DNA of 64,000 bases from Eukaryota sp. GEM-RC1 (taxonomy: Eukaryota), in contig JAUFOQ010000004.1 in NCBI GenBank assembly GCA_040285855.1, positions 1,984,001 to 2,048,000 of the forward strand, given 5' to 3'. The notes under the pieces are model-generated. The model searched no databases. It was not told the DNA's origin and saw only the letters and a list, made by a program, of their open reading frames with translations. The position numbers were made by a program, and so were the translations under genes. Positions within the stretch are counted from its first letter, which is position 1; each line of letters opens with the position of its first letter. This document shows, in pieces, positions 40,488 through 61,634 of the stretch.

Positions 40488-40907
40488 TTAGAAACGCATT
40501 CTATTTTTGTGCAGTGGTTTTAATGACTGTTGTGTTTGACTGTTGATTGAGTTGTTAAGTAGATCGATCCTAGTAACAGAATAATTCACCTTTAAAGCTC
40601 CAGCAATTGCAATAGCGCCTTCACTACCAATTGAATTGTTATTTAGATTGATCCCAGAAACAGACGAATTCACCTTTAAAGCTTCAGCAATTGCAATAGC
40701 GCCTTCAGGACCAATTGAGTTGTTACTTAGATCGATCGTAGAAGCCTCATTTCTCACCATCTGATCATAACAATTCTTCAACTTAGAGCTAAGCTTACTC
40801 CAATCAATAACAAGTTTCTTCTCTTCAACTTGCTGGACAGGAGATACATGTTTAACCGATTTGATTGGTAAAAACAGTGTCATCTTGGGAGGTAGAAGAA
40901 GCAACAC
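40488..40907 (-). CDS. LRR cassette 11 (type A, 3 modules; extra base in the N-terminal linker near 40870)
   Basis: ggtaaaaacag here versus ggtaaaacag in sister copies; LRR part intact. Confidence 0.6.
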   Translation of the reverse strand: MLLLLPPKMTLFLPIKSVKHVSPVQQVEEKKLVIDWSKLSSKLKNCYDQMVRNEASTIDLSNNSIGPEGAIAIAEALKVNSSVSGINLNNNSIGSEGAIAIAGALKVNYSVTRIDLLNNSINSQTQQSLKPLHKNRMRF

Positions 40908-42061
40908 TGGATTCAGAATCCACAGACAGAGAGGTCAAACGACGAGAAGCAGCGGAGTGGACTGACAAAAGTTCTTCATTTAGGGAGGAGATGATGGAGG
41001 ACTGGTGTTGAAGAAGGGTGGAAGTAGTGGTGATGAAGTCTTCGCTAACCTTTGGTTGGAAAATACAGTTTCAGTATTAAGGTTATGAGGTTTTCTGGAC
41101 CTTAAAATCTCACGTTTTTCAACAGGCTTTCTACATTTACGATTTTTGTTTTCCAGCTGGTTTACAGAATACATATTCATACTCATTACAGTGTGGCTTA
41201 GTGAGTGCTAGATAAGTTACTCTATTAAAGATGTACAAAGATCGGTTCTGTGTGTTGAGACAAATACAAAACAAGATGTGACCTTTAATTAAAGACCATT
41301 CACAATCTACGAACAACCAAATTCTAACCAGTTGTTAGCACCAAGTGATATATCTAAATACTTTTTCCAGTTTTCATTGTGGAACTTCTGAACAAATTCT
41401 AAACACAAAGTTTTTAACAATACAAATTCTTAATTTCGTCGACTGTAAACTTCCCCATAAAGAAACCGTGGAAGCAAAACTTTGATATTGTGGTGTGTTC
41501 GTGTTATAACTCCGCCATTTGATTGTCTCCTGCTGACTGCAAACTATTTTGGCAATTCTTTGTCTATAACTAACAGGTTTATTATGCACATGGCAATGAG
41601 TACATATAAAAACACATGTAAAATTATCATTGAAAACAAACAAAGCATCATTTAGTTACATTGAATATTTCAAAAACTTGTTCTTGAGCGAAAATACAAT
41701 CGTGTTAATTATGAGTCAAAATGTTGATGATTCCAAGAGTGTAAACATTCGAAATAATGTAGCATTATTTCAGAAACTAATTACTATCTGGTGTTTTTGA
41801 CAACAATAGTGAATGAACTACTGAACACGATGTGTCTATTCGCCAGAGTAGTCTTGTATCTGAAAATCTGCTAAGCAGTTTTGGTATTGGTTTCTTTGTG
41901 GGTCACTTTGGAGTTGTATTTGAGATAATGATTGCTCTGACCTAAACGATATTTGAAGTGTAATACATTCATTCTTTGATGGCTGATGATGATGGTGCTC
42001 TTGATAAGAAATCATTTATGATTTTTTGAGTAATGTGATTTTATGTCCAAGGAAAATATCT

Positions 42062-43804
42062 TTAGAAATAAATTCTATTCTTGTGTAGTGATTTTAATGA
42101 CTGTTGTGTTTGACTGTCGATTGAGTTGTTCTCTAGATAGATCACAGTAACAGACGAATTCAACTTTAAAGCTTCAGCAATTGCAATAGCGCCTTCATTA
42201 CCAATTGAGTTGTTACCTAGATTGATCACAGTAACAGACGAATTCACCTTTAAAGCTTCAGCAATTGCAATAGCGCATTCATTACCAATTGAGTTGTTAC
42301 CTAGATTGATCACAGTAACAGACGAATTCACCTTTAAAGCTTCAGCAATTGCAATAGCGCCTTCAGGACCAGTTGAGTTGTTATGTAGATAAATCTGAGA
42401 AACAGACGAATTCACCTTTAAAGCTTCAGCAATTGCAATAACGCCTTCATTACCAATTGAGTTGTTATATAGATCGATCACAGTAACAGACGAATTCACC
42501 TTTAAAGCTTCAGCAATTGCAATAGCGCCTTCAGGACCAATTGAGTTGTTATGTAGATAAATCTGAGAAACAGACGAATTCACCTTTAAAGCTTCAGCAA
42601 TTGCAATAGCGCATTCATTACCAATTGAGTTGTTACCTAGATTGATCACAGTAACAGACGAATTCACCTTTAAAGCTTCAGCAATTGCAATAGCGCCTTC
42701 AGGACCAGTTGAGTTGTTATGTAGATAAATCTGAGAAACAGACGAATTCACCTTTAAAGCTTCAGCAATTGCAATAACGCCTTCATTACCAATTGAGTTG
42801 TTATATAGATCGATCACAGTAACAGACGAATTCACCTTTAAAGCTTCAGCAATTGCAATAGCGCCTTCAGGACCAATTGAGTTGTTATGTAGATAAATCT
42901 GAGAAACAGACGAATTCACCTTTAAAGCTTCAGCAATTGCAATAGCGCATTCATTACCAATTGAGTTGTTACCTAGATTGATCACAGTAACAGACGAATT
43001 CACCTTTAAAGCTTCAGCAATTGCAATAGCGCCTTCAGGACCAGTTGAGTTGTTATGTAGATAAATCTGAGAAACAGACGAATTCACCTTTAAAGCTTCA
43101 GCAATTGCAATAACGCCTTCATTACCAATTGAGTTGTTATATAGATCGATCACAGTAACAGACGAATTCACCTTTAAAGCTTCAGCAATTGCAATAGCGC
43201 CTTCAGGACCAATTGAGTTGTTATGTAGATAAATCTGAGAAACAGACGAATTCACCTTTAAAGCTTCAGCAATTGCAATAGCGCCTTCAGGACCAATTGA
43301 GTTGTTATGTAGATCGATCCTACTAACAGACGAATTCACCTTTAAAGCTTCAGCAATTGCAATAGCGCCTTCAGGACCAATTGAGTTGTTATGTAGATAA
43401 ATCTGAGAAACAGACGAATTCACCTTTAAAGCTTCAGCAATTGCAATAACGCCTTCATTACCAATTGAGTTGTTATATAGATAGATATCAGAAACAGACG
43501 AATTCAGCTTTAAAGCTTCTGCAATTGCAATAGCGCCTTCAGGACCAATTGAGTTGTTATCTAGACCGATCGCAGAAACCTCATTTCTCACCATCTGATC
43601 ATAACAGTTCTTCAGCTCAGAGCTCAGCTTTCTCCAATCAATAACAAGTTTCTTCTCTTCAACTTGCTGGACAGGAGACACACTTTCAGCAGACTTGATT
43701 GGTAAAACAAAGGAATCATCTTGAGACCCAACTGAAGCAACACTGGATTCAGAATCCACAGACAGAGAGGTTAAACGACGGGAAGCAGCAGAGTAGACTG
43801 ACAA
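42062..43804 (-). CDS. LRR cassette 12 (type A, 18 modules)
   Basis: 580-aa ORF: 17 full 28-aa repeats plus terminal cap module. Confidence 0.8.
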   Translation of the reverse strand: MSVYSAASRRLTSLSVDSESSVASVGSQDDSFVLPIKSAESVSPVQQVEEKKLVIDWRKLSSELKNCYDQMVRNEVSAIGLDNNSIGPEGAIAIAEALKLNSSVSDIYLYNNSIGNEGVIAIAEALKVNSSVSQIYLHNNSIGPEGAIAIAEALKVNSSVSRIDLHNNSIGPEGAIAIAEALKVNSSVSQIYLHNNSIGPEGAIAIAEALKVNSSVTVIDLYNNSIGNEGVIAIAEALKVNSSVSQIYLHNNSTGPEGAIAIAEALKVNSSVTVINLGNNSIGNECAIAIAEALKVNSSVSQIYLHNNSIGPEGAIAIAEALKVNSSVTVIDLYNNSIGNEGVIAIAEALKVNSSVSQIYLHNNSTGPEGAIAIAEALKVNSSVTVINLGNNSIGNECAIAIAEALKVNSSVSQIYLHNNSIGPEGAIAIAEALKVNSSVTVIDLYNNSIGNEGVIAIAEALKVNSSVSQIYLHNNSTGPEGAIAIAEALKVNSSVTVINLGNNSIGNECAIAIAEALKVNSSVTVINLGNNSIGNEGAIAIAEALKLNSSVTVIYLENNSIDSQTQQSLKSLHKNRIYF

Positions 43805-44898
43805 AAGTTCTTCATTTAGGGAGGAGATGATGGAGGACTGGTGTTGAAGAAGGGTGGAAGTAGTTGTAATGAATTGTTCGTTAATCTGTGGTTGGAAAAT
43901 ACAGTTTGAGTATTAAGGTTATGAGGTTTTTCGGACCTTAAAATCTCACGTTTTTCAACAGGCTTTCTACATTTACGATTTTCGTTTTCCAGCTGGTTTA
44001 CAGAATACATATTCATACTCATTACAGTGTAGCTTAGTGAGTGCTAGATAAGTTACTCTATTAAAGATGTACAAAGATCGGTTCTGTGTGTTGAGACAAA
44101 TACAAAACAAGATGTGACCTTTAATTAAAGAACATTCACAATCTACGAACAACCAAATTCTAACCAGTTGTTAGCACCAAGTGATATATCTAAATACTTT
44201 TTTCCAGTTTTCATTGTGGAACTTCTGAACAAATTCTAAACACAAAGTTTTTAACAATACAAATTCTCAATTTCGTCAACTGTAAACTTCCCCATAAAGA
44301 AACCGTGGAAGCAAAACTTTGATATTGTGGTGTGTTCGTGTTATAACTCCGCCATTTGATTGTCTCCTGCTGACTGCAAACTATTTTGGCAATTCTTTGT
44401 CTATAACTAACAGGTTTATTATGCACATGGCAATGAGTACATATAAAAACACATGTAAAATTATCATTGAAAACAAACAAAGCATCATTTAGTTACATTG
44501 AATCTTTCAAAAACTTGTTCTTGAGCGAAAATACAATCGTGTTAATTATGAGTCAAAATGTTGATGATTCCAAGAGTGTAAACATTCGAAATAATGTAGC
44601 ATTATTTCAGAAACTAATTACTATCTGGTGTTTTTGACAACAATAGTAAATGAACTACTGAACACGATGTGTCTATTCGCCAGAGTAGTGTTGTATCTGA
44701 AAATCTGCTAAGCAGTTTTGGTATTGGTTTCTTTGTGGGTCACTTTGGAGTTGTATTTGAGATAATGATTGCTCTGACCTAAACGATATTTGAAGTGTAA
44801 TACATTCATTCTTTGATGGCTGATGATGATGGGGCTTTTGATAAGAAATCATTTATGATTTTTGAGCAATGTGTTCTTTATGTCTAAGGAAAATATCT

Positions 44899-45423
44899 TT
44901 AGAAACGCATTCTATTTTTGTGCAGTGGTTTTAATGACTGTTGTGTTTGACTGTTGATTGAGTTGTTACATAGATAGATCTCAGTAACAGAAGAATTCAC
45001 CTTTAAAGCTTCAGCAATTGCAATAGCGCCTTCATTACCAATTGAGTTGTTCTCTAGATAGATCTGAGAAACAGAAGAATTCACCTTTAAAGCTTCAGCA
45101 ATTGCAATAGCGCCTTCATTACCAATTGAGTTGTTACCTAGATCGATCACAGTAACAGACGAATTCACCTTTAAAGCTTGAGCAATTGCAATAGCGCCTT
45201 CATTACCAATTGAGTTGTTACCTAGATCGATCACAGTAACAGACGAATGCACCTTTAAAGCTTGAGCAATTGCAATATCGCCTCCAGGACCAATTGAGTT
45301 GGTACCTAGATAGATCTCAGAAACAGAAGAATTCACCTTTAAAGCTTCAGCAATTGCAATAGCGCCTTCAGGACCAATTGAGTTGTTACATAGATTGATC
45401 GTAGACAAATCATTTCCCACCAT
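44899..45423 (-). CDS. LRR cassette 13 (type B, 6 modules)
   Basis: 174-aa ORF. Confidence 0.7.
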   Translation of the reverse strand: MVGNDLSTINLCNNSIGPEGAIAIAEALKVNSSVSEIYLGTNSIGPGGDIAIAQALKVHSSVTVIDLGNNSIGNEGAIAIAQALKVNSSVTVIDLGNNSIGNEGAIAIAEALKVNSSVSQIYLENNSIGNEGAIAIAEALKVNSSVTEIYLCNNSINSQTQQSLKPLHKNRMRF

Positions 45424-46562
45424 TCTCCTCCTTAAATGAAGAGCTTTTGTCAGTCCACTCCGATGCTTCTCGTCGTTTGACCTCTCTGTCTGTGGATTCT
45501 GAATCCAGTGTTGCTTCAGTTGGGTCTCCAGATTGCCCTATTTTACAACGCTAACCTTTGGTTGGAAGATACAGTTCGAGTAATAAGGCTATGAGCTTTA
45601 CTTAAATCTCACGTCTTTCAACTGGCTATCTACATTTGCGATTTTTGTTTTCCAGCTGGTTTACAGAGTACATATTCCTTACAGTGTGGCTTAGAGAATG
45701 TTAGATTATTTACTCTATTAAAGATGTCCAAAGACCGGTCCTGTGTGTTGAGACAAATACAAAACAAGATGTCATATTTATTTAAAGATCATCAAAACAA
45801 AATGTAACTAACAACTAATTCTAACCAGTCGTCAGCACCAAGTGATATATCTACATATATTTTTTTTCCAGTTTAAATTGAGGAGTTTCCGAACAAATTC
45901 TGAACAGACAGTTTTAAACAATACAATCTCTTAAGTTAAATAACTAATGCTTCCCTATAGAGAAACCGTGGAAGCATAACATTGTTATTGTGGTGTGTTT
46001 GTGATATACCACCACCACCAGTTGATTTCCTCCTATTGACTGCACCATTCAAGAAAACTATTTTGGCAATTCTTTGTTTATAACTGACAGGTTTTTTCTG
46101 CACATAGCAATGATTACATATAAAAACACATGTAAACTTACCAAAGAAAATAATCAAAGCATCATTCAGTTACACTGAATCTTTCAAAAGCTTTTCCTTG
46201 AGAGAAAATGTAATCGTTTTGATTATGAGTCAGTATGTTGATTCCAAAAGTGTAAACAATTGATATTAAGTTGCATTCTTTCATATACTAATTGATATCT
46301 GGTGTTGTTGAAAACTATAGCAAATGTACTACTAAATATGACGTGTCTTATTCGCCAGAGTAGTAGTATTGTATCTGAACATCTAAGCAGCTTTGGTATT
46401 GGTGTATCTGTGTGTCACTTTGGAGTTGTATTTGAGATAATGATTGTTCTGACCTAAACGATATTTGAAGTATGTAATACATTCACCTGATGATGGGGCT
46501 TTTGATAAGAAATCATTTATGATTATTGAACAATGTGATCTTTATGTCTAAGGAAAATATCT

Positions 46563-46751
46563 TTAGAAACGCATTCTATTTTTGTGCAGTGGTTTTAATG
46601 ACTGTTGTGTTTGACTGTTGATTGAGTTGTTACCTAGATAGATCTCAGTAACAGAAGAATTCACCTTTAAAGCTTCAGCAATTGGAATAGCGCCTTCACT
46701 ACCAATTGAGTTGCTACGTAGATAGATCCCAGAAACCTCATTTCTCACCAT
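46563..46751 (-). CDS. LRR cassette 14 (type B minimal)
   Basis: 62-aa ORF. Confidence 0.55.
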   Translation of the reverse strand: MVRNEVSGIYLRSNSIGSEGAIPIAEALKVNSSVTEIYLGNNSINSQTQQSLKPLHKNRMRF

Positions 46752-47379
46752 TCTCCTCCTTAAATGAAGAGCTTTTGTCAGTCCACTCTGATGCTTCTCG
46801 TCGTTTGACCTCTCTGTCTGTGGATTCTGAATCCAGTGTTGCTTCAGTTGGGTCTCCAGATTGCCCTATTTTACAACGCTAACCTTTGGTTGGAAGATAC
46901 AGTTCGAGTAATAAGGTTATGAGCTTTACTTAAATCTCACGTCTTTCAACTGGCTATCTACATTTGCGATTTTTGTTTTCCAGCTGGTTTACAGAGTACA
47001 TATTCCTTACAGTGTGGCTTAGAGAATGTTAGATTATTTACTCTATTAAAGATGTCCAAAGACCGGTCCTGTGTGTTGAGACAAATACAAAACAAGATGT
47101 CATATTTAATTAAAGATCATCAAAACAAAATGTAACTAACAACTAATTCTAACCAGTCGTCAGCACCAAGTGATATATCTACATATATTTTTTTCCAGTT
47201 TAAATTGAGGAGTTTCCGAACAAATTCTGAACAAATTTGGAGTTGTATTTGAGATAATGATTGTTCTGACCTAAACGATATTTGAAGTATGTAATACATT
47301 CACCTGATGATGGGGCTTTTGATAAGAAATCATTTATGATTATTGAACAATGTGATCTTTATGTCTAAGGAAAATATCT

Positions 47380-47568
47380 TTAGAAACGCATTCTATTTTT
47401 GTGCAGTGGTTTTAATGACTGTTGTGTTTGACTGTTGATTGAGTTGTTACCTAGATAGATCTCAGTAACAGAAGAATTCACCTTTAAAGCTTCAGCAATT
47501 GGAATAGCGCCTTCACTACCAATTGAGTTGCTACGTAGATAGATCCCAGAAACCTCATTTCTCACCAT
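47380..47568 (-). CDS. LRR cassette 15 (type B minimal)
   Basis: 62-aa ORF. Confidence 0.55.
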   Translation of the reverse strand: MVRNEVSGIYLRSNSIGSEGAIPIAEALKVNSSVTEIYLGNNSINSQTQQSLKPLHKNRMRF

Positions 47569-48586
47569 TCTCCTCCTTAAATGAAGAGCTTTTGTCAGTC
47601 CACTCCGATGCTTCTCGTCGTTTGACCTCTCTGTCTGTGGATTCTGAATCCAGTGTTGCTTCAGTTGGGTCTCCAGATTGCCCTATTTTACAACGCTAAC
47701 CTTTGGTTGGAAGATACAGTTCGCGTAATAAGGTTATGAGCTTTACTTAAATCTCACGTCTTTCAACTGGCTATCTACATTTGCGATTTTTGTTTTCCAG
47801 CTGGTTTACAGAGTACATATTCCTTACAGTGTGGCTTAGTGAATGTTAGATAAGTTACTCTATTAAAGATGTCCAAAGACCGGTTTTGTGTGTTGTGACA
47901 AATACAAAACAAGATGTCACATTTAATGAAAGATCATTAAAATAAAATTTAACGAACAACCTAATTCTAACCAGTAGTTAGCACCAAGAGATATATCACC
48001 AAAACGTTGTTATTGTGGTGTGTTTGTGATATACCACCACCATTTGATTTCCTCCTATCGATTGCACCATTCAATAACACTATTTTGGCAATTCATTGTC
48101 TATAACTAACAGGTTTGTTGCGCACATAAAAATGAATACATATAAAACAAATGTAAAATTACCATTGAAAATAATCAAAGCATCATTCAGTTACAGTGAA
48201 TCTTTCAAAAGCTTTTTCTTGAGAGAAAATACAATTATTTTGATTATGAGTCAGTATGTTGATGATTCCAAAAGTGTAAACAATTGATATTAAGTTGCAT
48301 TCTTTCATATACTAATTGATATCTGGTGTTGTTGAAAACTATAGCAAATGTACTACTAAATATGACGTGTCTTATTCGCCAGAGTAGTAGTATTGTATCT
48401 GAACATCTAAGCAGCTTTGGTATTGGTGTATCTGTGTGTCACTTTGGAGTTGTATTTGAGATAATGATTGTTCTGACCTAAACGATATTTGAAGTATGTA
48501 ATACATTCACCTGATGATGGGGCTTTTGATAAGAAATCATTTATGATTATTGAACAATGTGATCTTTATGTCTAAGGAAAATATCT

Positions 48587-48775
48587 TTAGAAACGCATTC
48601 TATTTTTGTGCAGTGGTTTTAATGACTGTTGTGTTTGACTGTTGATTGAGTTGTTACCTAGATAGATCTCAGTAACAGAAGAATTCACCTTTAAAGCTTC
48701 AGCAATTGGAATAGCACCTTCACTACCAATTGAGTTGCTACGTAGATAGATCCCAGAAACCTCATTTCTCACCAT
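48587..48775 (-). CDS. LRR cassette 16 (type B minimal)
   Basis: 62-aa ORF. Confidence 0.55.
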   Translation of the reverse strand: MVRNEVSGIYLRSNSIGSEGAIPIAEALKVNSSVTEIYLGNNSINSQTQQSLKPLHKNRMRF

Positions 48776-49916
48776 TCTCCTCCTTAAATGAAGAGCTTTT
48801 GTCAGTCCACTCCGATGCTTCTCGTCGTTTGACCTCTCTGTCTGTGGATTCTGAATCCAGTGTTGCTTCAGTTGGGTCTCCAGATTGCCCTATTTTACAA
48901 CGCTAACCTTTGGTTGGAAGATACAGTTCGAGTAATAAGGTTATGAGCTTTACTTAAATCTCACGTCTTTCAACTGGCTATCTACATTTGCGATTTTTGT
49001 TTTCCAGCTGGTTTACAGAGTACATATTCCTTACAGTGTGGCTTAGAGAATGTTAGATTATTTACTCTATTAAAGATGTCCAAAGACCGGTCCTGTGTGT
49101 TGAGACAAATACAAAACAAGATGTCATATTTAATTAAAGATCATCAAAACAAAATGTAACTAACAACTCATTCTAACCAGTCGTCAGCACCAAGTGATAT
49201 ATCTACATATATTTTTTTTCCAGTTTAAATTGAGGAGTTTCCGAACAAATTCTGAACAGACAGTTTTAAACAATACAATCTCTTAAGTTAAATAACTAAT
49301 GCTTCCCTATAGAGAAACCGTGGAGGCATAACATTGTTATTGTGGTGTGTTTGTGATATACCACCACCACCAGTTGATTTCCTCCTATTGACTGCACCAT
49401 TCAAGAAAACTATTTTGGCAATTCTTTGTTTATAACTGACAGGTTTTTTCCGCACATAGCAATGATTACATATAAAAACACATGTAAACTTACCAAAGAA
49501 AATAATCAAAGCATCATTCAGTTACACTGAATCTTTCAAAAGCTTTTCCTTGAGAGAAAATGTAATCGTTTTGATTATGAGTCAGTATGTTGATTCCAAA
49601 AGTGTAAACAATTGATATTAAGTTGCATTCTTTCATATACTAATTGATATCTGGTGTTGTTGAAAACTATAGCAAATGTACTACTAAATATGACGTGTCT
49701 TATTCGCCAGAGTAGTAGTATTGTATCTGAACATCTACTAAGCAGCTTTGGTATTGGTGTATCTGTGTGTCACTTTGGAGTTGTATTTGAGATAATGATT
49801 GTTCTGACCTAAACGATATTTGAAGTATGTAATACATTCACCTGATGATGGGGCTTTTGATAAGAAATCATTTATGATTATTGAACAATGTGATCTTTAT
49901 GTCTAAGGAAAATACT

Positions 49917-50105
49917 TTAGAAACGCATTCTATTTTTGTGCAGTGGTTTTAATGACTGTTGTGTTTGACTGTTGATTGAGTTGTTACCTAGATAGATCTC
50001 AGTAACAGAAGAATTCACCTTTAAAGCTTCAGCAATTGGAATAGCACCTTCACTACCAATTGAGTTGCTACGTAGATAGATCCCAGAAACCTCATTTCTC
50101 ACCAT
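49917..50105 (-). CDS. LRR cassette 17 (type B minimal)
   Basis: 62-aa ORF. Confidence 0.55.
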   Translation of the reverse strand: MVRNEVSGIYLRSNSIGSEGAIPIAEALKVNSSVTEIYLGNNSINSQTQQSLKPLHKNRMRF

Positions 50106-51254
50106 TCTCCTCCTTAAATGAAGAGCTTTTGTCAGTCCACTCCGATGCTTCTCGTCGTTTGACCTCTCTGTCTGTGGATTCTGAATCCAGTGTTGCTTCA
50201 GTTGGGTCTCCAGATTGCCCTATTTTACAACGCTAACCTTTGGTTGGAAGATACAGTTCGAGTAATAAGGTTATGAGCTTTACTTAAATCTCACGTCTTT
50301 CAACTGGCTATCTACATTTGCGATTTTTGTTTTCCAGCTGGTTTACAGAGTACATATTCCTTACAGTGTGGCTTAGAGAATGTTAGATTATTTACTCTAT
50401 TAAAGATGTCCAAAGACCGGTCCTGTGTGTTGAGACAAATACAAAACAAGATGTCATATTTAATTAAAGATCATCAAAACAAAATGTAACTAACAACTAA
50501 TTCTAACCAGTCGTCAGCACCAAGTGATATATCTACATATATTTTTTTTCCAGTTTAAATTGAGGAGTTTCCGAACAAATTCTGAACAGACAGTTTTAAA
50601 CAATACAATCTCTTAAGTTAAATAACTAATGCTTCCCTATAGAGAAACCGTGGAAGTATAACATTGTTATTGTGGTGTGTTTGTGATATACCACCACCAT
50701 TTGATTTCCTCCTATTGACTGCACCATTCAATAACACTATTTTGGCAATTTTTTGTTTATAACTGACAGGTTTTTTCCGCACATAGCAATGATTACATAT
50801 AAAAACACATGTAAACTTACCAAAGAAAATAATCAAAACATCATTCAGTTACACTGAATCTTTCAAAAGCTTTTCCTTGGGAGAAAATGTAATCGTTTTG
50901 ATTATGAGTCAGTATGTTGATTCCAAAAGTGTAAACAATTGATATTAAGTTGCATTATTTCATATACTAATTGATATCTGGTGTTGTTGAAAACAATAGC
51001 AAATGTACTACTAAATATGACGTGTCTTATTCGCCAGAGTAGTAGTATTGTATCTGAACATCTGCTAAGCAGCTTTGGTATTGGTGTATCTGTGTGTCAC
51101 TTTGGAGTTGTATTTGAGATAATGATTGTTCTGACCTAAACGATATTTGAAGTGTAATACATTCATTCTTTGATGGCTGATGATGATGGTGCTCTTGATA
51201 AGAAATCATTTATGATTTTTGAGTAATGTGATTTTATGTCCAAGGAAAATATCT

Positions 51255-52322
51255 TTAGAAATAAATTCTATTCTTGTGTAGTGATTTTAATGACTGTTGT
51301 GTTTGACTGTTGATTGAGTTGTTACATAGATAGATCTCAGTTACAGACGAATTGACCTTTAAAGCTTCAGCAATTGCAATAGCGCCTTCATTACCAATTG
51401 AGTTGTAACCAAGATAGATCACAGTAACAGACGAATTCAACTTTAAAGCTTCAGCAATTGCAATAGCGCCTTCAGGACCAATTGAGTTGTTATGTAGATA
51501 AATCTGAGAAACAGACGAATTCACCTTTAAAGCTTCAGCAATTGCAATAACGCCTTCATTACCAATTGAGTTGTTATATAGATAGATATCAGAAACAGAC
51601 GAATTCAGCTTTAAAGCTTCTGCAATTGCAATAGCGCCTTCAGGACCAATTGAGTTGGTACCTAGATCGATCACAGTAACAGAATAATTCACCTTTAAAG
51701 CTTCAGCAATTGCAATAGCGCCTTCAGGACCAATTGAGTTGTTCTCTAGATAGATCTCAGTAACAGAAGAATTCACCTTTAAAGCTTCAGCAATTGCAAT
51801 AGCGCCTTCAGGACCAATTGAGTTGGTACCTAGATCGATCACAGTAACAGAATAATTCACCTTTAAAGCTTCAGCAATTGCAATAGCGCCCTCATTACCA
51901 ATTGAGTTGTTCTCTAGATAGATCTCAGTAACAGAAGAATTCACCTTTAAAGCTTCAGCAATTGCAATAACGCCTTCATTACCAATTGAGTTGTTATATA
52001 GATAGATATCAGAAACAGACGAATTCAGCTTTAAAGCTTCTGCAATTGCAATAGCGCCTTCAGGACCAATTGAGTTGTTATCTAGACCGATCGCAGAAAC
52101 CTCATTTCTCACCATCTGATCATAACAGTTCTTCAGCTCAGAGCTCAGCTTTCTCCAATCAATAACAAGTTTCTTCTCTTCAACTTGCTGGACAGGAGAT
52201 ACATGTTTAACCGATTTGATTGGTAAAACAGTGTCATCTTGGGAGGTAGAAGAAGCAACACTGGATTCAGAATCCACAGACAGAGAGGTCAAACGACGAG
52301 AAGCAGCGGAGTGGACTGACAA
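51255..52322 (-). CDS. LRR cassette 18 (type A, 10 modules)
   Basis: 355-aa ORF. Confidence 0.75.
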   Translation of the reverse strand: MSVHSAASRRLTSLSVDSESSVASSTSQDDTVLPIKSVKHVSPVQQVEEKKLVIDWRKLSSELKNCYDQMVRNEVSAIGLDNNSIGPEGAIAIAEALKLNSSVSDIYLYNNSIGNEGVIAIAEALKVNSSVTEIYLENNSIGNEGAIAIAEALKVNYSVTVIDLGTNSIGPEGAIAIAEALKVNSSVTEIYLENNSIGPEGAIAIAEALKVNYSVTVIDLGTNSIGPEGAIAIAEALKLNSSVSDIYLYNNSIGNEGVIAIAEALKVNSSVSQIYLHNNSIGPEGAIAIAEALKLNSSVTVIYLGYNSIGNEGAIAIAEALKVNSSVTEIYLCNNSINSQTQQSLKSLHKNRIYF

Positions 52323-53413
52323 AAGCTCTTCATTTAAGGAGGAGATGATGGAGGACTGGTGTTGAAGAAGGGTGGAAGTAGTGGTGATGAAGTCTTCGCT
52401 AACCTTTGGTTGGAAAATACAGTTTGAGTATTAAGGTTATGAGGTTTTTCGGACCTTAAAATCTCACGTTTTTCAACAGGCTTTCTACATTTACGATTTT
52501 CGTTTTCCAGCTGGTTTACAGAATACATATTCATACTCATTACAGTGTAGCTTAGTGAGTGCTAGATAAGTTACTCTATTAAAGATATACAAAGATCGGT
52601 TCTGTGTGTTGAGACAAATACAAAACAAGATGTGACCTTTAATTAAAGACCATTCACAATCTACGAACAACCAAATTCTAACCAGTTGTTAGCACCAAGT
52701 GATATATCTAAATACTTTTTCCAGTTTTCATTGTGGAACTTCTGAACAAATTCTAAACACAAAGTTTTTAACAATACAAATTCTTAATTTCGTCAACTGT
52801 AAACTTCCCCATAAAGAAACCGTGGAAGCAAAACTTTGATATTGTGGTGTGTTCGTGTTATAACTCCGCCATTTGATTGTCTCCTGCTGACTGCAAACTA
52901 TTTTGGCAATTCTTTGTCTATAACTAACAGGTTTATTATGCACATGGCAATGAGTACATATAAAAACACATGTAAAATTATCATTGAAAACAAACAAAGC
53001 ATCATTTAGTTACATTGAATCTTTCAAAAACTTGTTCTTGAGCGAAAATACAATCGTGTTAATTATGAGTCAAAATGTTGATGATTCCAAGAGTGTAAAC
53101 ATTCGAAATAATGTAGCATTATTTCAGAAACTAATTACTATCTGGTGTTTTTGACAACAATAGTAAATGAACTACTGAACACGATGTGTCTATTCGCCAG
53201 AGTAGTCTTGTATCTGAAAATCTGCTAAGCAGTTTTGGTATTGGTTTCTTTGTGGGTCACTTTGGAGTTGTATTTGAGATAATGATTGCCTGACCTAAAC
53301 GATATTTGAAGTGTAATACATTCATTCTTTGATGGCTGATGATGATGGTGCTCTTGATAAGAAATCATTTATGATTATTGAACAATGTGATCTTTATGTC
53401 TAAGGAAAATACT

Positions 53414-53602
53414 TTAGAAACGCATTCTATTTTTGTGCAGTGGTTTTAATGACTGTTGTGTTTGACTGTTGATTGAGTTGTTACCTAGATAGATCTCAGT
53501 AACAGAAGAATTCACCTTTAAAGCTTCAGCAATTGGAATAGCACCTTCACTACCAATTGAGTTGCTACGTAGATAGATCCCAGAAACCTCATTTCTCACC
53601 AT
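53414..53602 (-). CDS. LRR cassette 19 (type B minimal)
   Basis: 62-aa ORF. Confidence 0.55.
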   Translation of the reverse strand: MVRNEVSGIYLRSNSIGSEGAIPIAEALKVNSSVTEIYLGNNSINSQTQQSLKPLHKNRMRF

Positions 53603-54743
53603 TCTCCTCCTTAAATGAAGAGCTTTTGTCAGTCCACTCCGATGCTTCTCGTCGTTTGACCTCTCTGTCTGTGGATTCTGAATCCAGTGTTGCTTCAGTT
53701 GGGTCTCCAGATTGCCCTATTTTACAACGCTAACCTTTGGTTGGAAGATACAGTTCGCGTAATAAGGTTATGAGCTTTACTTAAATCTCACGTCTTTCAA
53801 CTGGCTATCTACATTTGCGATTTTTGTTTTCCAGCTGGTATACAGAGTACATATTCCTTACAGTGTGGCTTAGAGAATGTTAGATTATTTACTCTATTAA
53901 AGATGTCCAAAGACCGGTCCTGTGTGTTGAGACAAATACAAAACAAGATGTCATATTTAATTAAAGATCATCAAAACAAAATGTAACTAACAACTAATTC
54001 TAACCAGTCGTCAGCACCAAGTGATATATCTACATATATTTTTTTCCAGTTTAAATTGAGGAGTTTCCGAACAAATTCTGAACAGACAGTTTTAAACAAT
54101 ACAATCTCTTAAGTTAAATAACTAATGCTTCCCTATAGAGAAACCGTGGAAGCATAACATTGTTATTGTGGTGTGTTTGTGATATACCACCACCACCAGT
54201 TGATTTCCTCCTATTGACTGCACCATTCAAGAAAACTATTTTGGCAATTCTTTGTCTATAACTGACAGGTTTTTTCCGCACATAGCAATGATTACATATA
54301 AAAACACATGTAAACTTACCAAAGAAAATAATTAAAGCATCATTCAGTTACACTGAATCTTTCAAAAGCTTTTCCTTGGGAGAAAATGTAATCGTTTTGA
54401 TTATGAGTCAGTATGTTGATTCCAAAAGTGTAAACAATTGATATTAAGTTGCATTCTTTCATATACTAATTGATATCTGGTGTTGTTGAAAACTATAGCA
54501 AATGTACTACTAAATGTGACGTGTCTTATTCGCCAGAGTAGTAGTATTGTATCTGAACATCTGCTAAGCAGCTTTGGTATTGGTGTATCTGTGTGTCACT
54601 TTGGAGTTCTATTTGAGATAATGATTGTTCTGACCTAAACGATATTTGAAGTATGTAATACATTCACCTGATGATGGGGCTTTTGATAAGAAATCATTTA
54701 TGATTATTGAACAATGTGATCTTTATATCTAAGGAAAGTATCT

Positions 54744-55223
54744 TTAGAAATAAATTCTATTTTTGTGCAGTGATTTTAATGACTGTTGTGTTTGACTGTT
54801 GATTGAGTTGTTACGTAGATCGATCCTAGTAACAGAATAATTCACCTTTAAAGCTCCAGCAATTGCAATAGCGCCTTCACTACCAATTGAATTGTTATTT
54901 AGATTGATCCCAGAAACAGACGAATTCACCTTTAAAGCTTCAGCAATTGCAATAGCGCCTTCAGGACCAATTGAGTTGTTATCTAGACCGATCGCAGAAA
55001 CCTCATTTCTCACCATCTGATCATAACAATTCTTCAACTTAGAGCTAAGCTTACTCCAATCAATAACAAGTTTCTTCTCTTCAACTTGCTGGACAGGAGA
55101 TACATGTTTAACCGATTTGATTGGTAAAACAGTGTCATCTTGGGAGGTAGAAGAAGCAACACTGGATTCAGAATCCACAGACAGAGAGGTCAAACGACGA
55201 GAAGCAGCGGAGTGGACTGACAA
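54744..55223 (-). CDS. LRR cassette 20 (type A, 3 modules)
   Basis: 159-aa ORF. Confidence 0.65.
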   Translation of the reverse strand: MSVHSAASRRLTSLSVDSESSVASSTSQDDTVLPIKSVKHVSPVQQVEEKKLVIDWSKLSSKLKNCYDQMVRNEVSAIGLDNNSIGPEGAIAIAEALKVNSSVSGINLNNNSIGSEGAIAIAGALKVNYSVTRIDLRNNSINSQTQQSLKSLHKNRIYF

Positions 55224-56302
55224 AAGTTCTTCATTTAGGGAGGAGATGATGGAGGACTGGTGTTGAAGAAGGGTGGAAGTAGTTGTAATGAATTGTTCGT
55301 TAATCTTTGGTTGGAAAATACAGTTTGAGTATTAAGGTTATGAGGTTTTTCGGACCTTAAAATCTCACGTTTTTCAACAGGCTTTCTACATTTACGATTT
55401 TCGTTTTCCAGCTGGTTTACAGAATACATATTCATACTCATTACAGTGTAGCTTAGTGAGTGCTAGATAAGTTACTCTATTAAAGATGTACAAAGATCGG
55501 TTCTGTGTGTTGAGACAAATACAAAACAAGATGTGACCTTTAATTAAAGACCATTCACAATCTACGAACAACCAAATTCTAACCAGTTGTTAGCACCAAG
55601 TGATATATCTAAATACTTTTTTCCAGTTTTCATTGTGGAACTTCTGAACAAATTCTAAACACAAAGTTTTTAACAATACAAATTCTTAATTTCGTCAACT
55701 GTAAACTTCCCCATAAAGAAACCGTGGAAGCAAAACTTTGATATTGTGGTGTGCTCGTGTTATAACTCCGCCATTTGATTGTCTCCTGCTGACTGCAAAC
55801 TATTTTGGCAATTCTTTGTCTATAACTAACAGGTTTATTATGCACATGGCAATGAGTACATATAAAAACACATGTAAAATTATCATTGAAAACAAACAAA
55901 GCATCATTTAGTTACATTGAATCTTTCAAAAACTTGTTCTTGAGCGAAAATACAATCGTGTTAATTATGAGTCAAAATGTTGATGATTCCAAGAGTGTAA
56001 ACATTCGAAATAATGTAGCATTATTTCAGAAACTAATTACTATCTGGTGTTTTTGACAACAATAGTAAATGAACTACTGAACACGATGTGTCTATTCGCC
56101 AGAGTAGTCCTGTATCTGAAAATCTGCTAAGCAGTTTTGGTATTGGTTTCTTTGTGGGTCACTTTGGAGTTGTATTTGAGATAATGATTGCTCTGACCTA
56201 AACGATATTTGAAGTGTAATACATTCATTCTTTGATGGCTGATGATGATGGGGCTTTTGATAAGAAATCATTTATGATTTTTGAGCAATGTGATCTTTAT
56301 GT

Positions 56303-56713
56303 CTAAGGAAAATATCTTTGGAAACGCATTCTATTCTTGTGTAGTGATTTTAATGACTGTTGTGTTTGACTGTTGATTGAGTTGTTACCTAGATAGATAT
56401 CAGAAACAGACGAATTCACCTTTAAAGCTTCAGCAATTGCAATAGCGCCTTCAGGACCAATTGAGTTGTTATCTAGACCGATCGCAGAAACCTCATTTCT
56501 CACCATCTGATCATAACAGTTCTTCAGCTCAGAGCTCAGCTTTCTCCAATCAATAACAAGTTTCTTCTCTTCAACTTGCTGGACAGGAGATACATGTTTA
56601 ACCGATTTGATTGGTAAAACAGTGTCATCTTGGGAGGTAGAAGAAGCAACACTGGATTCAGAATCCACAGACAGAGAGGTTAAACGACGGGAAGCAGCAG
56701 AGTAGACTGACAA
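56303..56713 (-). CDS. LRR cassette 21 (type A, 2 modules, stop lost)
   Basis: 136-aa ORF; TAA to CAA adds QRYFP. Confidence 0.6.
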   Translation of the reverse strand: MSVYSAASRRLTSLSVDSESSVASSTSQDDTVLPIKSVKHVSPVQQVEEKKLVIDWRKLSSELKNCYDQMVRNEVSAIGLDNNSIGPEGAIAIAEALKVNSSVSDIYLGNNSINSQTQQSLKSLHKNRMRFQRYFP

Positions 56714-57806
56714 AAGTTCTTCATTTAGGGAGGAGATGATGGAGGACTGGTGTTGAAGATGGGTGGAAGTAGTTGTAATGAATTGTTCGTTAATCTTTGG
56801 TTGGAAAATACAGTTTGAGTATTAAGGTTATGAGGTTTTTCGGACCTTAAAATCTCACGTTTTTCAACAGGCTTTCTACATTTACGATTTTCGTTTTCCA
56901 GCTGGTTTACAGAATACATATTCATACTCATTACAGTGTAGCTTAGTGAGTGCTAGATAAGTTACTCTATTAAAGATGTACAAAGATCGGTTCTGTGTGT
57001 TGAGACAAATACAAAACAAGATGTGACCTTTAATTAAAGACCATTCACAATCTACGAACAACCAAATTCTAACCAGTTGTTAGCACCAAGTGATATATCT
57101 AAATACTTTTTTCCAGTTTTCATTGTGGAACTTCTGAACAAATTCTAAACACAAAGTTTTTAACAATACAAATTCTTAATTTCGTCAACTGTAAACTTCC
57201 CCATAAAGAAACCGTGGAAGCAAAACTTTGATATTGTGGTGTGCTCGTGTTATAACTCCGCCATTTGATTGTCTCCTGCTGACTGCAAACTATTTTGGCA
57301 ATTCTTTGTCTATAACTAACAGGTTTATTATGCACATGGCAATGAGTACATATAAAAACACATGTAAAATTATCATTGAAAACAAACAAAGCATCATTTA
57401 GTTACATTGAATCTTTCAAAAACTTGTTCTTGAGCGAAAATACAATCGTGTTAATTATGAGTCAAAATGTTGATGATTCCAAGAGTGTAAACATTCGAAA
57501 TAATGTAGCATTATTTCAGAAACTAATTACTATCTGGTGTTTTTGACAACAATAGTAAATGAACTACTGAACACGATGTGTCTATTCGCCAGAGTAGTCC
57601 TGTATCTGAAAATCTGCTAAGCAGTTTTGGTATTGGTTTCTTTGTGGGTCACTTTGGAGTTGTATTTGAGATAATGATTGCTCTGACCTAAACGATATTT
57701 GAAGTGTAATACATTCATTCTTTGATGGCTGATGATGATGGTGCTCTTGATAAGAAATCATTTATGATTTTTGAGTAATGTGATTTTATGTCCAAGGAAA
57801 ATATCT

Positions 57807-58628
57807 TTAGAAATAAATTCTATTCTTGTGTAGTGATTTTAATGACTGTTGTGTTTGACTGTCGATTGAGTTGTTACCTAGATTGATCACAGTAACAGAC
57901 GAATTCAACTTTAAAGCTTCAGCAATTGCAATAGCGCCTCCAGGACCAATTGAGTTGTTAGATAGATCGATCCTAGTAACAGACGAATTCAACTTTAAAG
58001 CTTCAGCAATTGCAATAGCGCCTCCAGGACCAATTGAGTTGTTAGATAGATCGATCCTAGTAACAGACGAATTCAACTTTAAAGCTTCAGCAATTGCAAT
58101 AGCGCCTTCAGGACCAATTGAGTTGTTAGATAGATTGATCCTAGTAACAGAAACAGACGAATTCACCTTTAAAGCTTCAGCAATTGCAATAGCGCCTTCA
58201 GGACCAATTGAGTTGTTATGTAGATAGATATCAGAAACAGACGAATTCAGCTTTAAAGCTTCAGCAATTGCAATAGCGCCTTCAGGACCAATTGAGTTGT
58301 TATGTAGATAGATCCTGCTAACAGACGAATTCACCTTTAAAGCTTCAGCAATTGCAATAGCGCCTTCAGGACCAATTGAGTTGTTTCTTAGATCGATCGT
58401 AGAAGCCTCATTTCTCACCATCTGATCATAACAATTCTTCAACTTAGAGCTCAGCTTTCTCCAATCAATAACAAGTTTCTTCTCTTCAACTTGCTGGACA
58501 GGAGATACATGTTTAACCGATTTGATTGGTAAAACAGTGTCATCTTGGGAGGTAGAAGAAGCAACACTGGATTCAGAATCCACAGACAGAGAGGTTAAAC
58601 GACGGGAAGCAGCAGAGTAGACTGACAA
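57807..58628 (-). CDS. LRR cassette 22 (type A, 7 modules)
   Basis: 273-aa ORF; one module has a 2-aa insertion. Confidence 0.75.
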   Translation of the reverse strand: MSVYSAASRRLTSLSVDSESSVASSTSQDDTVLPIKSVKHVSPVQQVEEKKLVIDWRKLSSKLKNCYDQMVRNEASTIDLRNNSIGPEGAIAIAEALKVNSSVSRIYLHNNSIGPEGAIAIAEALKLNSSVSDIYLHNNSIGPEGAIAIAEALKVNSSVSVTRINLSNNSIGPEGAIAIAEALKLNSSVTRIDLSNNSIGPGGAIAIAEALKLNSSVTRIDLSNNSIGPGGAIAIAEALKLNSSVTVINLGNNSIDSQTQQSLKSLHKNRIYF

Positions 58629-59720
58629 AAGTTCTTCATTTAGGGAGGAGATGATGGAGGACTGGTGTTGAAGATGGGTGGAAGTAGTTGTAATGAATTG
58701 TTCGTTAATCTTTGGTTGGAAAATACAGTTTGAGTATTAAGGTTATGAGGTTTTTCGGACCTTAAAATCTCACGTTTTTCAACAGGCTTTCTACATTTAC
58801 GATTTTCGTTTTCCAGCTGGTTTACAGAATACATATTCATACTCATTACAGTGTAGCTTAGTGAGTGCTAGATAAGTTACTCTATTAAAGATGTACAAAG
58901 ATCGGTTCTGTGTGTTGAGACAAATACAAAACAAGATGTGACCTTTAATTAAAGACCATTCACAATCTACGAACAACCAAATTCTAACCAGTTGTTAGCA
59001 CCAAGTGATATATCTAAATACTTTTTCCAGTTTTCATTGTGGAACTTCTGAACAAATTCTAAACACAAAGTTTTTAACAATACAAATTCTTAATTTCGTC
59101 AACTGTAAACTTCCCCATAAAGAAACCGTGGAAGCAAAACTTTGATATTGTGGTGTGCTCGTGTTATAACTCCGCCATTTGATTGTCTCCTGCTGACTGC
59201 AAACTATTTTGGCAATTCTTTGTCTATAACTAACAGGTTTATTATGCACATGGCAATGAGTACATATAAAAACACATGTAAAATTATCATTGAAAACAAA
59301 CAAAGCATCATTTAGTTACATTGAATCTTTCAAAAACTTGTTCTTGAGCGAAAATACAATCGTGTTAATTATGAGTCAAAATGTTGATGATTCCAAGAGT
59401 GTAAACATTCGAAATAATGTAGCATTATTTCAGAAACTAATTACTATCTGGTGTTTTTGACAACAATAGTAAATGAACTACTGAACACGATGTGTCTATT
59501 CGCCAGAGTAGTCCTGTATCTGAAAATCTGCTAAGCAGTTTTGGTATTGGTTTCTTTGTGGGTCACTTTGGAGTTGTATTTGAGATAATGATTGCTCTGA
59601 CCTAAACGATATTTGAAGTGTAATACATTCATTCTTTGATGGCTGATGATGATGGTGCTCTTGATAAGAAATCATTTATGATTTTTGAGTAATGTGATTT
59701 TATGTCCAAGGAAAATATCT

Positions 59721-60542
59721 TTAGAAATAAATTCTATTCTTGTGTAGTGATTTTAATGACTGTTGTGTTTGACTGTCGATTGAGTTGTTACCTAGATTGA
59801 TCACAGTAACAGACGAATTCAACTTTAAAGCTTCAGCAATTGCAATAGCGCCTCCAGGACCAATTGAGTTGTTAGATAGATCGATCCTAGTAACAGACGA
59901 ATTCAACTTTAAAGCTTCAGCAATTGCAATAGCGCCTCCAGGACCAATTGAGTTGTTAGATAGATCGATCCTAGTAACAGACGAATTCAACTTTAAAGCT
60001 TCAGCAATTGCAATAGCGCCTTCAGGACCAATTGAGTTGTTAGATAGATTGATCCTAGTAACAGAAACAGACGAATTCACCTTTAAAGCTTCAGCAATTG
60101 CAATAGCGCCTTCAGGACCAATTGAGTTGTTATGTAGATAGATATCAGAAACAGACGAATTCAGCTTTAAAGCTTCAGCAATTGCAATAGCGCCTTCAGG
60201 ACCAATTGAGTTGTTATGTAGATAGATCCTGCTAACAGACGAATTCACCTTTAAAGCTTCAGCAATTGCAATAGCGCCTTCAGGACCAATTGAGTTGTTT
60301 CTTAGATCGATCGTAGAAGCCTCATTTCTCACCATCTGATCATAACAATTCTTCAACTTAGAGCTCAGCTTTCTCCAATCAATAACAAGTTTCTTCTCTT
60401 CAACTTGCTGGACAGGAGATACATGTTTAACCGATTTGATTGGTAAAACAGTGTCATCTTGGGAGGTAGAAGAAGCAACACTGGATTCAGAATCCACAGA
60501 CAGAGAGGTTAAACGACGGGAAGCAGCAGAGTAGACTGACAA
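59721..60542 (-). CDS. LRR cassette 23 (type A, 7 modules, same protein as 22)
   Basis: 273-aa ORF at a 1914-bp period. Confidence 0.75.
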   Translation of the reverse strand: MSVYSAASRRLTSLSVDSESSVASSTSQDDTVLPIKSVKHVSPVQQVEEKKLVIDWRKLSSKLKNCYDQMVRNEASTIDLRNNSIGPEGAIAIAEALKVNSSVSRIYLHNNSIGPEGAIAIAEALKLNSSVSDIYLHNNSIGPEGAIAIAEALKVNSSVSVTRINLSNNSIGPEGAIAIAEALKLNSSVTRIDLSNNSIGPGGAIAIAEALKLNSSVTRIDLSNNSIGPGGAIAIAEALKLNSSVTVINLGNNSIDSQTQQSLKSLHKNRIYF

Positions 60543-61634
60543 AAGTTCTTCATTTAGGGAGGAGATGATGGAGGACTGGTGTTGAAGATGGGTGGAAGTA
60601 GTTGTAATGAATTGTTCGTTAATCTTTGGTTGGAAAATACAGTTTGAGTATTAAGGTTATGAGGTTTTTCGGACCTTAAAATCTCACGTTTTTCAACAGG
60701 CTTTCTACATTTACGATTTTCGTTTTCCAGCTGGTTTACAGAATACATATTCATACTCATTACAGTGTAGCTTAGTGAGTGCTAGATAAGTTACTCTATT
60801 AAAGATGTACAAAGATCGGTTCTGTGTGTTGAGACAAATACAAAACAAGATGTGACCTTTAATTAAAGACCATTCACAATCTACGAACAACCAAATTCTA
60901 ACCAGTTGTTAGCACCAAGTGATATATCTAAATACTTTTTCCAGTTTTCATTGTGGAACTTCTGAACAAATTCTAAACACAAAGTTTTTAACAATACAAA
61001 TTCTTAATTTCGTCAACTGTAAACTTCCCCATAAAGAAACCGTGGAAGCAAAACTTTGATATTGTGGTGTGCTCGTGTTATAACTCCGCCATTTGATTGT
61101 CTCCTGCTGACTGCAAACTATTTTGGCAATTCTTTGTCTATAACTAACAGGTTTATTATGCACATGGCAATGAGTACATATAAAAACACATGTAAAATTA
61201 TCATTGAAAACAAACAAAGCATCATTTAGTTACATTGAATCTTTCAAAAACTTGTTCTTGAGCGAAAATACAATCGTGTTAATTATGAGTCAAAATGTTG
61301 ATGATTCCAAGAGTGTAAACATTCGAAATAATGTAGCATTATTTCAGAAACTAATTACTATCTGGTGTTTTTGACAACAATAGTAAATGAACTACTGAAC
61401 ACGATGTGTCTATTCGCCAGAGTAGTCCTGTATCTGAAAATCTGCTAAGCAGTTTTGGTATTGGTTTCTTTGTGGGTCACTTTGGAGTTGTATTTGAGAT
61501 AATGATTGCTCTGACCTAAACGATATTTGAAGTGTAATACATTCATTCTTTGATGGCTGATGATGATGGTGCTCTTGATAAGAAATCATTTATGATTTTT
61601 GAGTAATGTGATTTTATGTCCAAGGAAAAAATCT

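What the first reader, a model, noticed from the sequence alone, without database searches (positions are those of the whole stretch)
51255..52322. Combinatorial reuse of identical modules between cassettes
Seen: cassette 18 combines SAIGLDN, SDIYLYN-NEGV and SQIYLHN (shared with cassette 12) with TEIYLEN and NYSV-TVIDLGT (shared with type B cassettes 2 and 6). Cassettes 11 and 20 share the SGINLNN/AGALKVNYSV-TRIDL core but differ in first module and cap. Hybrid caps (KSLHKNRMRF) occur in cassettes 21 and 25. Inference: module-level gene conversion or unequal exchange through the invariant scaffold, in frame because the period is 84 bp.
Basis: seen in the sequence. Interest (0 to 1): 0.7.

Follow-up and report, generated by a model that had tools for sequence, protein, structure and literature searches.

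The report
Headless LRR cassette library, TRIM-like genes
In a single-celled anaerobic eukaryote, 25 tandem copies of the tail half of a TRIM-like gene share identical leucine-rich-repeat modules with each other and with intact genes, and likely serve as a spare-parts store that refits the binding surface of a predicted immune sensor.

Summary
Observation confirmed. Cassette 18 is a patchwork of exact 56-217 nt tracts also found in cassettes 12, 2/6 and 13; the 11/20 core and hybrid caps are real. An intact-type member in the window is identical to a protein named Eukaryota sp. GEM-RC1, a free-living metamonad. Variation sits on the five exposed strand positions of the RI/NOD2-like repeat (26 nonsynonymous:1 synonymous versus 17:11). 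Two database gene models have near-identical heads (224/225) but different LRR sets drawn from the array's alphabet (8/8 and 3/6 cores). Best reading: ordinary homologous recombination among 84-bp repeats makes the array a passive reservoir for intact receptors. Exchange is not limited to scaffolds. No reads were available, so expression, rate and single-read support are untested. Close precedents exist (Podospora NLR repeats, Tetrahymena LRRs, vlhA); the TRIM-LRR head-plus-headless-array layout was not found in print.

The parts
51255..52115 (-). Cassette 18 LRR frame (ATG to stop): 10 modules of 28 aa plus cap; mosaic of long-linker and inverted-linker lineages
   Evidence: AlphaFold2 pLDDT 97 RI-like solenoid, best fold match NOD2 LRR TM 0.92
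52116..52418 (-). In-frame linker homologous to residues 237-339 of intact gene P0003; 52,418 is the junction where RING, B-boxes and coiled coil are missing; no in-frame ATG, stop 106 codons above the LRR start
51937..52115 (-). 179-nt tract identical to cassette 12 (SAIGLDN, SDIYLYN)
51641..51969 (-). Overlapping tracts of 161, 97 and 82 nt identical to cassettes 2/6 (TEIYLEN, NYSV-TVIDLGT, twice)
51441..51657 (-). 217-nt tract identical to cassette 12 (SDIYLYN, SQIYLHN)
51255..51341 (-). 57-nt tract identical to cassette 13 (TEIYLCN) running into a 56-nt cap tract identical to 12/22-24
25045..63906 (-). Tandem array of 25 cassettes, 112 LRR modules, 39 distinct cores; 10 with forward linker (1,5,11,12,18,20-24), 14 with partly inverted linker (2-4,6-10,13-17,19), cassette 25 junction outside the window; 11 are near-identical two-module 62-aa frames
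42062..43594 (-). Cassette 12, 18 modules with an internal 336-bp block repeated; linker 99/103 identical to intact P0003
26763..27287 (-). Cassette 2 (inverted-linker lineage), source of TEIYLEN/TVIDLGT tracts; cassette 6 (33,585-34,025) is its relative with the only internal stop in the array
40488..40760 (-). Cassette 11; shares 167 nt with cassette 20; 1-nt linker frameshift
54744..55016 (-). Cassette 20; first module of 12/18/21, core of 11, double-switch cap
56303..56506 (-). Cassette 21; hybrid cap, stop codon lost
63382..63999 (-). Cassette 25 with linker running off the window; matches intact gene model P0143 exactly for 121 aa (start) and 144 aa (end), P0143 having two extra modules
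25045..25875 (-). Cassette 1 (copy: cassette 5, 31,871-32,701): P0003-type linker joined to LRRs and cap of the divergent P0131/P0134 subfamily
606..2145 (+). RING-B-box-B-box-coiled-coil-linker-LRR-cap gene (= P0001), an older paralogue that shows the parent layout; frame shifts in a G6 run

Best explanation
The array is 25 tandem tail-halves of a TRIM-like RING-B-box-coiled-coil-LRR gene whose 84-bp repeats share long identical tracts, and it likely works as a passive reservoir: ordinary homologous recombination would shuffle modules among cassettes and refit the LRR surface of intact genes, which are predicted to be intracellular sensor-ubiquitin ligases. Steps: (1) one partial duplication beginning at residue 237 founded the unit, later split into forward-linker and inverted-linker lineages (junction shown; history inferred). 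(2) Unequal exchange and short gene conversion between misaligned repeats change module number and order, always in frame (mosaics shown; mechanism inferred). (3) The ~300-nt linker and the scaffold give homology through which a head can take a whole LRR domain or single modules from a cassette (shared modules shown at protein level; direction inferred). (4) Selection on intact genes favours new residues on the concave face, against microbial or viral ligands (excess of amino-acid changes shown; ligand unknown).
For: 24 of 24 visible cassettes begin at the same junction. Exact tracts and lineage alternation in cassette 18. 12 of 24 cores have two or more different successors. Changes concentrate at codons 9, 10, 12, 14, 15, the x positions of the LRR motif: 5.4 versus 1.2 changes per codon, 26:1 versus 17:11 nonsynonymous:synonymous, Fisher P=0.002; P=0.015 against neutral expectation; codons 10-12 form the strand in the model. 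Intact models P0143 and P0003, on a contig of the same length as P0001's, have heads 224/225 identical but no core in common; 8 of 8 P0143 cores occur in cassettes 22-25 and 3 of 6 P0003 cores occur in 2/6/18 and 12/18, i.e. in both lineages. 0 of 29 family or LRR proteins from other contigs share an exact core with the array, so exchange looks local. Model P0126 on another contig shows a head followed by two pieces that start at the same VFKPK position. Cassette 1/5 joins a P0003-type linker to another subfamily's LRRs.
Against: Heads are known only as ab initio protein models; their DNA and position were not seen, and P0143 may be a predicted splice from an upstream head into cassette 25, so it is not independent of it. 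Flow from cassette to head is not proven: heads could have spawned cassettes and been homogenised themselves. Only 3 of 32 cores cross lineages, all via cassette 18; the core-to-next-core graph has no cycles. Within-core recombination falls from 5 cycles to 1 and 0 when cores seen once are dropped. The 'buildable from half-cores' test is unspecific (12 of 15 in P0126). The face signal may be inherited from parents. The RING has Asp or His at the sixth ligand. No ligand, expression or activity data.
Confidence: 0.58

Rival explanations
1. A dedicated, high-rate diversification system like lamprey VLR or Mycoplasma synoviae vlhA: heads are expression sites that are rewritten from silent cassettes within a culture.
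For: Uniform headless junction; same head with different LRR sets; patchwork within modules, as described for VLR (PMC3308329, passages).
Against: Several complete heads exist, not one; heads already carry LRRs; 11 of 25 cassettes are near-identical copies, poor for a library; all face alleles connect by single-base steps; no recombination signal seen in spacers.
Confidence: 0.13
2. The cassettes are neutral by-products: frozen copies of gene tails shuffled by drift, with no return to intact genes.
For: No head, no in-frame ATG in the linker; 14 have a scrambled linker; one stop, one lost stop, one linker frameshift; spacers within a lineage differ by only 0.7-1.6%, so open frames need no selection.
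Against: P0003 carries cores of both cassette lineages behind a head almost identical to P0143's; this needs donors.
Confidence: 0.12
3. Cassettes are genes for small LRR-only proteins (decoys or stand-alone binders) starting at MVRNE, or alternative 3' exons spliced to a head.
For: First in-frame ATG is at the LRR start and survives the inversion; 24 of 25 frames are open over 9,951 nt; cassette 18 folds well alone; linker open in 9 of 10; ab initio models exist for several cassettes.
Against: Twelve have only two repeats; the helix before the first repeat (330-340 in P0003) lies upstream of that Met; the intact gene has no intron at the junction.
Confidence: 0.1
4. The mosaics are assembly artefacts: consensus or short-read polishing mixed near-identical repeats.
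For: The published assembly for the organism named was Nanopore R9.4 with Canu, Nanopolish and short-read polishing (PMC11316075); homopolymer frameshifts recur in family models; within-core recombinants are mostly singletons.
Against: Tracts run to 217 nt with no frameshift in 9,951 nt; multi-module joins recur in separate cassettes; variation is confined to five codons and is nonsynonymous, which errors would not give; 119x long-read cover is reported.
Confidence: 0.07

Closest known systems
Podospora NWD/HNWD NLRs with high internal conservation (PMC13449251, passages)
   Same: Near-identical repeats with a few hypervariable positions under diversifying selection; gain, loss and shuffling of repeats; identical repeats in different genes; repeats of pseudogenes stay nearly intact.
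   Different: WD40/TPR/ANK sensor on a NACHT or NB-ARC ATPase, dispersed genes. Here RI-type LRR on RING-B-box-coiled coil, no ATPase, and a tandem array of copies cut at one point.
Tetrahymena 90-bp-exon LRR genes (PMC6564038, passages)
   Same: Protist LRR repeats scrambled between paralogues by ectopic recombination; variable repeat number.
   Different: One exon per repeat with phase-2 introns and REP retrotransposons; few whole-gene tandem copies; mostly purifying selection. Here intronless repeats in a tandem headless array with a diversified face.
[quoted passage not shown]
   Same: Shuffled LRR modules under diversifying selection in candidate immune receptors; somatic recombination proposed.
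   Different: Exon-encoded repeats, GTPase or NB-ARC effectors.
Mycoplasma synoviae vlhA (PMC2825196, passages)
   Same: Complete gene plus a clustered pool of 5'-truncated copies that replace its 3' part.
   Different: Bacterial surface adhesin, single promoter, high-frequency switching shown. Here several heads, an intracellular-type protein, and no rate measured.
Lamprey VLR (PMC3308329, passages)
   Same: Flanking LRR cassettes as donors; patchwork within modules through short homology.
   Different: Germline VLR is incomplete and assembled somatically; here heads are complete and cassettes carry linker, LRRs, cap and 3' flank.
TRIM/RBCC ligases (PMC2533329 and PMC3503706, passages)
   Same: RING, two B-boxes, long helix, then a C-terminal binding domain; TRIM28 matched at E=1e-11.
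   Different: C-terminal RI-type LRR in place of SPRY, NHL or MATH; non-animal TRIMs in PMC3503706 are the MATH subfamily; non-canonical sixth RING ligand.

Membership tests
RI-like (LRR_6) leucine-rich repeat | 28-29 aa repeats, strand-helix solenoid | tested here: met
   Pfam LRR_6 E=1e-34; 84-bp period; model pLDDT 97; NOD2 LRR TM 0.92
TRIM/RBCC (intact heads) | RING then B-box1 then B-box2 in order | tested here: met
   P0003: RING 6-43, B-box 73-111 (24.7 bits, below the cut-off of 27) and 124-160; TRIM28 match over 39-210
TRIM/RBCC (intact heads) | Coiled coil directly after B-box2 | tested here: inconclusive
   Helix 155-221 at pLDDT about 60-70 from a 12-row alignment; Pfam TRIM_CC not hit
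TRIM/RBCC (intact heads) | Canonical C3HC4 zinc ligands | tested here: not met
   Sixth ligand is Asp in 5 of 7 heads and His in 2 of 7; so called TRIM-like, not filed as TRIM
TRIM/RBCC (intact heads) | E3 ubiquitin ligase activity | not testable with these tools
   needs an assay
TRIM/RBCC (intact heads) | Common descent with animal TRIMs | not tested
   no tree built; convergent assembly is possible
HIC-repeat receptors (Podospora type) | Repeats 80-100% identical with few hypervariable sites | tested here: met
   82-91% matches within arrays; five hypervariable codons
HIC-repeat receptors (Podospora type) | Identical repeats in different genes | tested here: met
   16 exact 84-nt units occur more than once, 13 of them in two or more cassettes; cores shared with P0143 and P0003 at protein level
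NLR | NACHT or NB-ARC ATPase | tested here: not met
   none in 5 family models or in 13 window frames
vlhA-type silent-cassette system | Clustered 5'-truncated copies of a complete gene | tested here: met
   24 of 24 visible junctions
vlhA-type silent-cassette system | Single complete expression site | tested here: not met
   at least P0001, P0002, P0003, P0122, P0126, P0143 carry a head and LRRs
vlhA-type silent-cassette system | Cassettes silent; switching within clones | not testable with these tools
   no reads could be laid
VLR-type assembly | Incomplete germline gene lacking LRRs | tested here: not met
   heads carry 6-11 repeats; head-only models such as P0121 exist but were not examined at DNA level

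The most novel reading that the evidence does not exclude
A free-living metamonad runs a cassette-based anticipatory immune system: near-identical TRIM-like ubiquitin-ligase heads are rewritten at high rate from a tandem library of headless LRR cassettes, so that cells in one clone carry different intracellular binding surfaces coupled directly to degradation, a single-celled counterpart of lamprey VLR assembly.
Probability: 0.13. Interest if true: 0.92.

Novelty: new variant of a known kind. Interest (0 to 1): 0.6.

Why it matters
How free-living protists recognise viruses and intracellular bacteria is largely open. This locus offers a concrete candidate: a sensor face under diversifying selection, joined to a predicted ubiquitin ligase, with a local store of variant modules. 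The organism is cultured and long-read sequenced (PMC11316075), so the rate and direction of exchange can be measured. RBCC heads with RI-type LRRs were absent from 147 of 147 other head relatives tested, so the layout looks lineage-specific and shows TRIM-like and LRR logic meeting outside animals. If exchange proves slow and passive, it is one more convergent case of the Podospora/Tetrahymena pattern.

Tried and rejected
No whole genome was held, so heads and sequence beyond 64,000 were not seen. Sequencing runs: none was listed, no RNA holder listed; no reads were laid; this is no evidence either way. Metagenome scan with P0003: 83 pattern matches, none a relative. Rfam: 0 matches. Spacer repeats: only short chance-like pairs, no transposon ends. 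Locus tags as a map: rejected, since models matching cassettes 21 and 24 and gene 1 carry tags hundreds apart. Decayed RING/B-box in spacers: none, tblastn to E=10. A 23-nt intron at the junction: rejected, the intact gene is continuous there and homology simply ends. P0130 N-terminus as homologue of the spacer: not significant. FPKM for these genes: not found in 5 searchable supplements; one PDF had no text and the main supplement was too large, so they may bear on expression. Atlas: B-box plus LRR_4 clusters at 0.86, a lead only; second Atlas call unanswered. Earlier scan notes: nothing. Cassettes 1 and 5 (12 of 112 modules) were left out of the recombination and selection counts as a divergent subfamily; with them face pN/pS is 0.43/0.086. 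Spacer 4 was left out of the painting.

Full report
The observation. They contain 112 modules with 39 distinct 21-nt cores. Cassette 18 parses into exact tracts shared with cassette 12 (179, 217 nt), 2 (161, 82 nt), 2/6 (97 nt), 13 (57 nt) and 12/22-24 (56 nt), with a few private bases. Nine of its 10 cores and 4 of its 9 neighbour pairs recur elsewhere (P=0.026 against shuffled order).

What the cassettes are. The window's first gene (606-2,145) is RING, two B-boxes, a long helix, a linker, LRRs and the same cap. It is identical to P0001, which its source names Eukaryota sp. GEM-RC1; a paper on BaSk metamonads treats Skoliomonas sp. GEMRC as a free-living anaerobe and has no mention of 'leucine-rich' in its main text (PMC11316075; passages and sections 6 and 17 read). 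That the window comes from that assembly was not established. Searching with the intact paralogue P0003 shows that cassette homology starts at residue 237 and that no RING or B-box remnant lies in the spacers. The junction is present in 24 of 24 cassettes whose upstream DNA is in the window; cassette 25's would fall near 64,209. Ten keep the linker forward (open in 9), 14 have part of it inverted just above the ATG. The two lineages differ by 18% in spacers and by 0.7-1.6% within, so the array is young. About 460 nt of 3' flank is homologous to gene 1's: the unit is a gene tail plus its downstream DNA.

Where exchange falls. Cassette 18 has a forward linker, yet its modules are nearest A, A, b, b, b, b, A, A, tie, b. 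Painting spacers at 130 diagnostic sites shows flank and following linker travelling together; by eye, lineage switches at cassettes 11, 13, 18, 19 and 20 fall in the LRR, cap or first ~100 nt of flank, one clear switch is mid-spacer (spacer 5), and spacers 1, 3 and 15 are mosaics with a third haplotype. The scaffold is 93.8% identical between lineages, so this fits homology-driven exchange. Inside the unit, four non-overlapping intervals need a crossover (codons 6-9, 9-18, 20-21, 21-25) and incompatibility rises with distance (P=0.018). Left and right halves of the core form 5 cycles against a mean of 0.2-0.6 in clonal simulations (P<=0.005 in six sets of 400) and 4.0 under free shuffling; this drops to 1 and 0 when cores seen in one module or one cassette are removed, so sub-module shuffling is the part most exposed to polishing error. 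Only 3 of 32 cores are shared between lineages, all through cassette 18.

Selection. Among 45 distinct module haplotypes (cassettes 1 and 5 left out), codons 9, 10, 12, 14 and 15, the x positions of the LxxLxLxxN motif (motif recalled), carry 27 of 55 changes: 26 nonsynonymous to 1 synonymous against 17 to 11 elsewhere (Fisher P=0.002; P=0.015 against a neutral 21% synonymous share). pN is 0.37 there and 0.056 elsewhere. The AlphaFold2 model of cassette 18 (pLDDT 97) puts codons 10-12 in each strand and matches the NOD2 LRR (TM 0.92). That the strand and following loop form the binding face follows from established knowledge of RI-type LRRs. The signal may come from the intact parents, not from the cassettes.

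Link to intact genes. P0143, on a contig of the same length as P0001's, has a full head and an LRR equal to cassette 25 plus a two-module duplication (121-aa and 144-aa exact runs); all 8 cores occur in cassettes 22-25. It is either a separate gene or a model spliced from an upstream head into cassette 25; either way a head is joined to this lineage's first modules. P0003 has a head 224/225 identical, a linker closest to cassette 12 (99/103) and a different LRR set, 3 of 6 cores matching cassettes of both lineages. Of 35 proteins compared, the 29 from other contigs share no exact core with the array. P0126 shows a head followed by two pieces starting at the same position on another contig. Cassettes 1/5 join a P0003-type linker to LRRs of the P0131/P0134 subfamily. 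All of this rests on ab initio protein models.

Mechanism. Shown: headless tandem copies, in-frame mosaics, face-restricted amino-acid change, modules shared with intact models. Inferred: unequal exchange and gene conversion as the process; return flow into heads; a role as ligand-binding ubiquitin ligases in defence. I put the passive reservoir at 0.58, a programmed system at 0.13, neutral by-product at 0.12, LRR-only or spliced products at 0.10 and artefact at 0.07.

Comparison. It works like Podospora high-internal-conservation NLR repeats and Tetrahymena or Ectocarpus LRR shuffling, and is laid out like M. synoviae vlhA. It is not an NLR, has no single expression site and no incomplete germline gene. 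The heads are TRIM-like in domain order but have Asp or His at the sixth RING ligand. A full HMMER search with the head found 5,183 relatives; of the best 150, three were already-known GEM-RC1 LRR proteins and 0 of the other 147 carried an RI-type LRR (Pfam on 20 of them agrees); the remaining 5,033 were not examined. Nine literature searches found no description of this array or of RBCC-LRR proteins in protists; most subscription papers are not searched.

Verdict. Real as far as the assembly can show, largely explained by known repeat-shuffling processes, but in an undescribed receptor layout with a plausible donor library. New variant of a known kind; interest 0.6.

Noticed in passing
window 858-894: Gene 1 shifts frame in a G6 run; models P0001 and P0143 both bridge this spot with a short predicted intron, while P0002 and P0003 read through, which suggests a homopolymer error.
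   Followed up: partly
window 8619-8889 and 9394-9537: Two arrays of a 30-bp AT-rich repeat just downstream of a lone, diverged, headless LRR frame at 9656-10351.
   Followed up: no
window 19664-22368: A RING-B-box fragment lies directly upstream of a 714-aa LRR_4 plus long helical frame of a different LRR class.
   Followed up: no
window 23164-27180 and 29990-34002: A duplication with 6.8-kb period carries the array's 3' end and 1.9 kb of unique flank, 99.7% identical in the flank.
   Followed up: partly
window 57807-60335: Cassettes 22 and 23 have identical frames and near-identical spacers: a very recent duplication or an uncollapsed assembly copy.
   Followed up: no
window 46752-47379: Spacer 14 has a deletion of about 510 nt.
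   Followed up: no
window 63382-63906 and other cassettes: Each module has a donor-like site after the lysine codon and an acceptor-like AG in the same phase, so splicing between modules of different cassettes would stay in frame; models P0129 and P0126 join neighbouring units.
   Followed up: no
P0007, P0023, P0061, P0009 (outside the window): The same LRR type is fused to BTB and kinase domains, and the same head to a non-LRR tail (P0009), in this organism.
   Followed up: no
window 16164-18764: Fragments that look like transposon proteins (a zinc-finger-like frame and a reverse-transcriptase-like frame); labels recalled, not tested.
   Followed up: no
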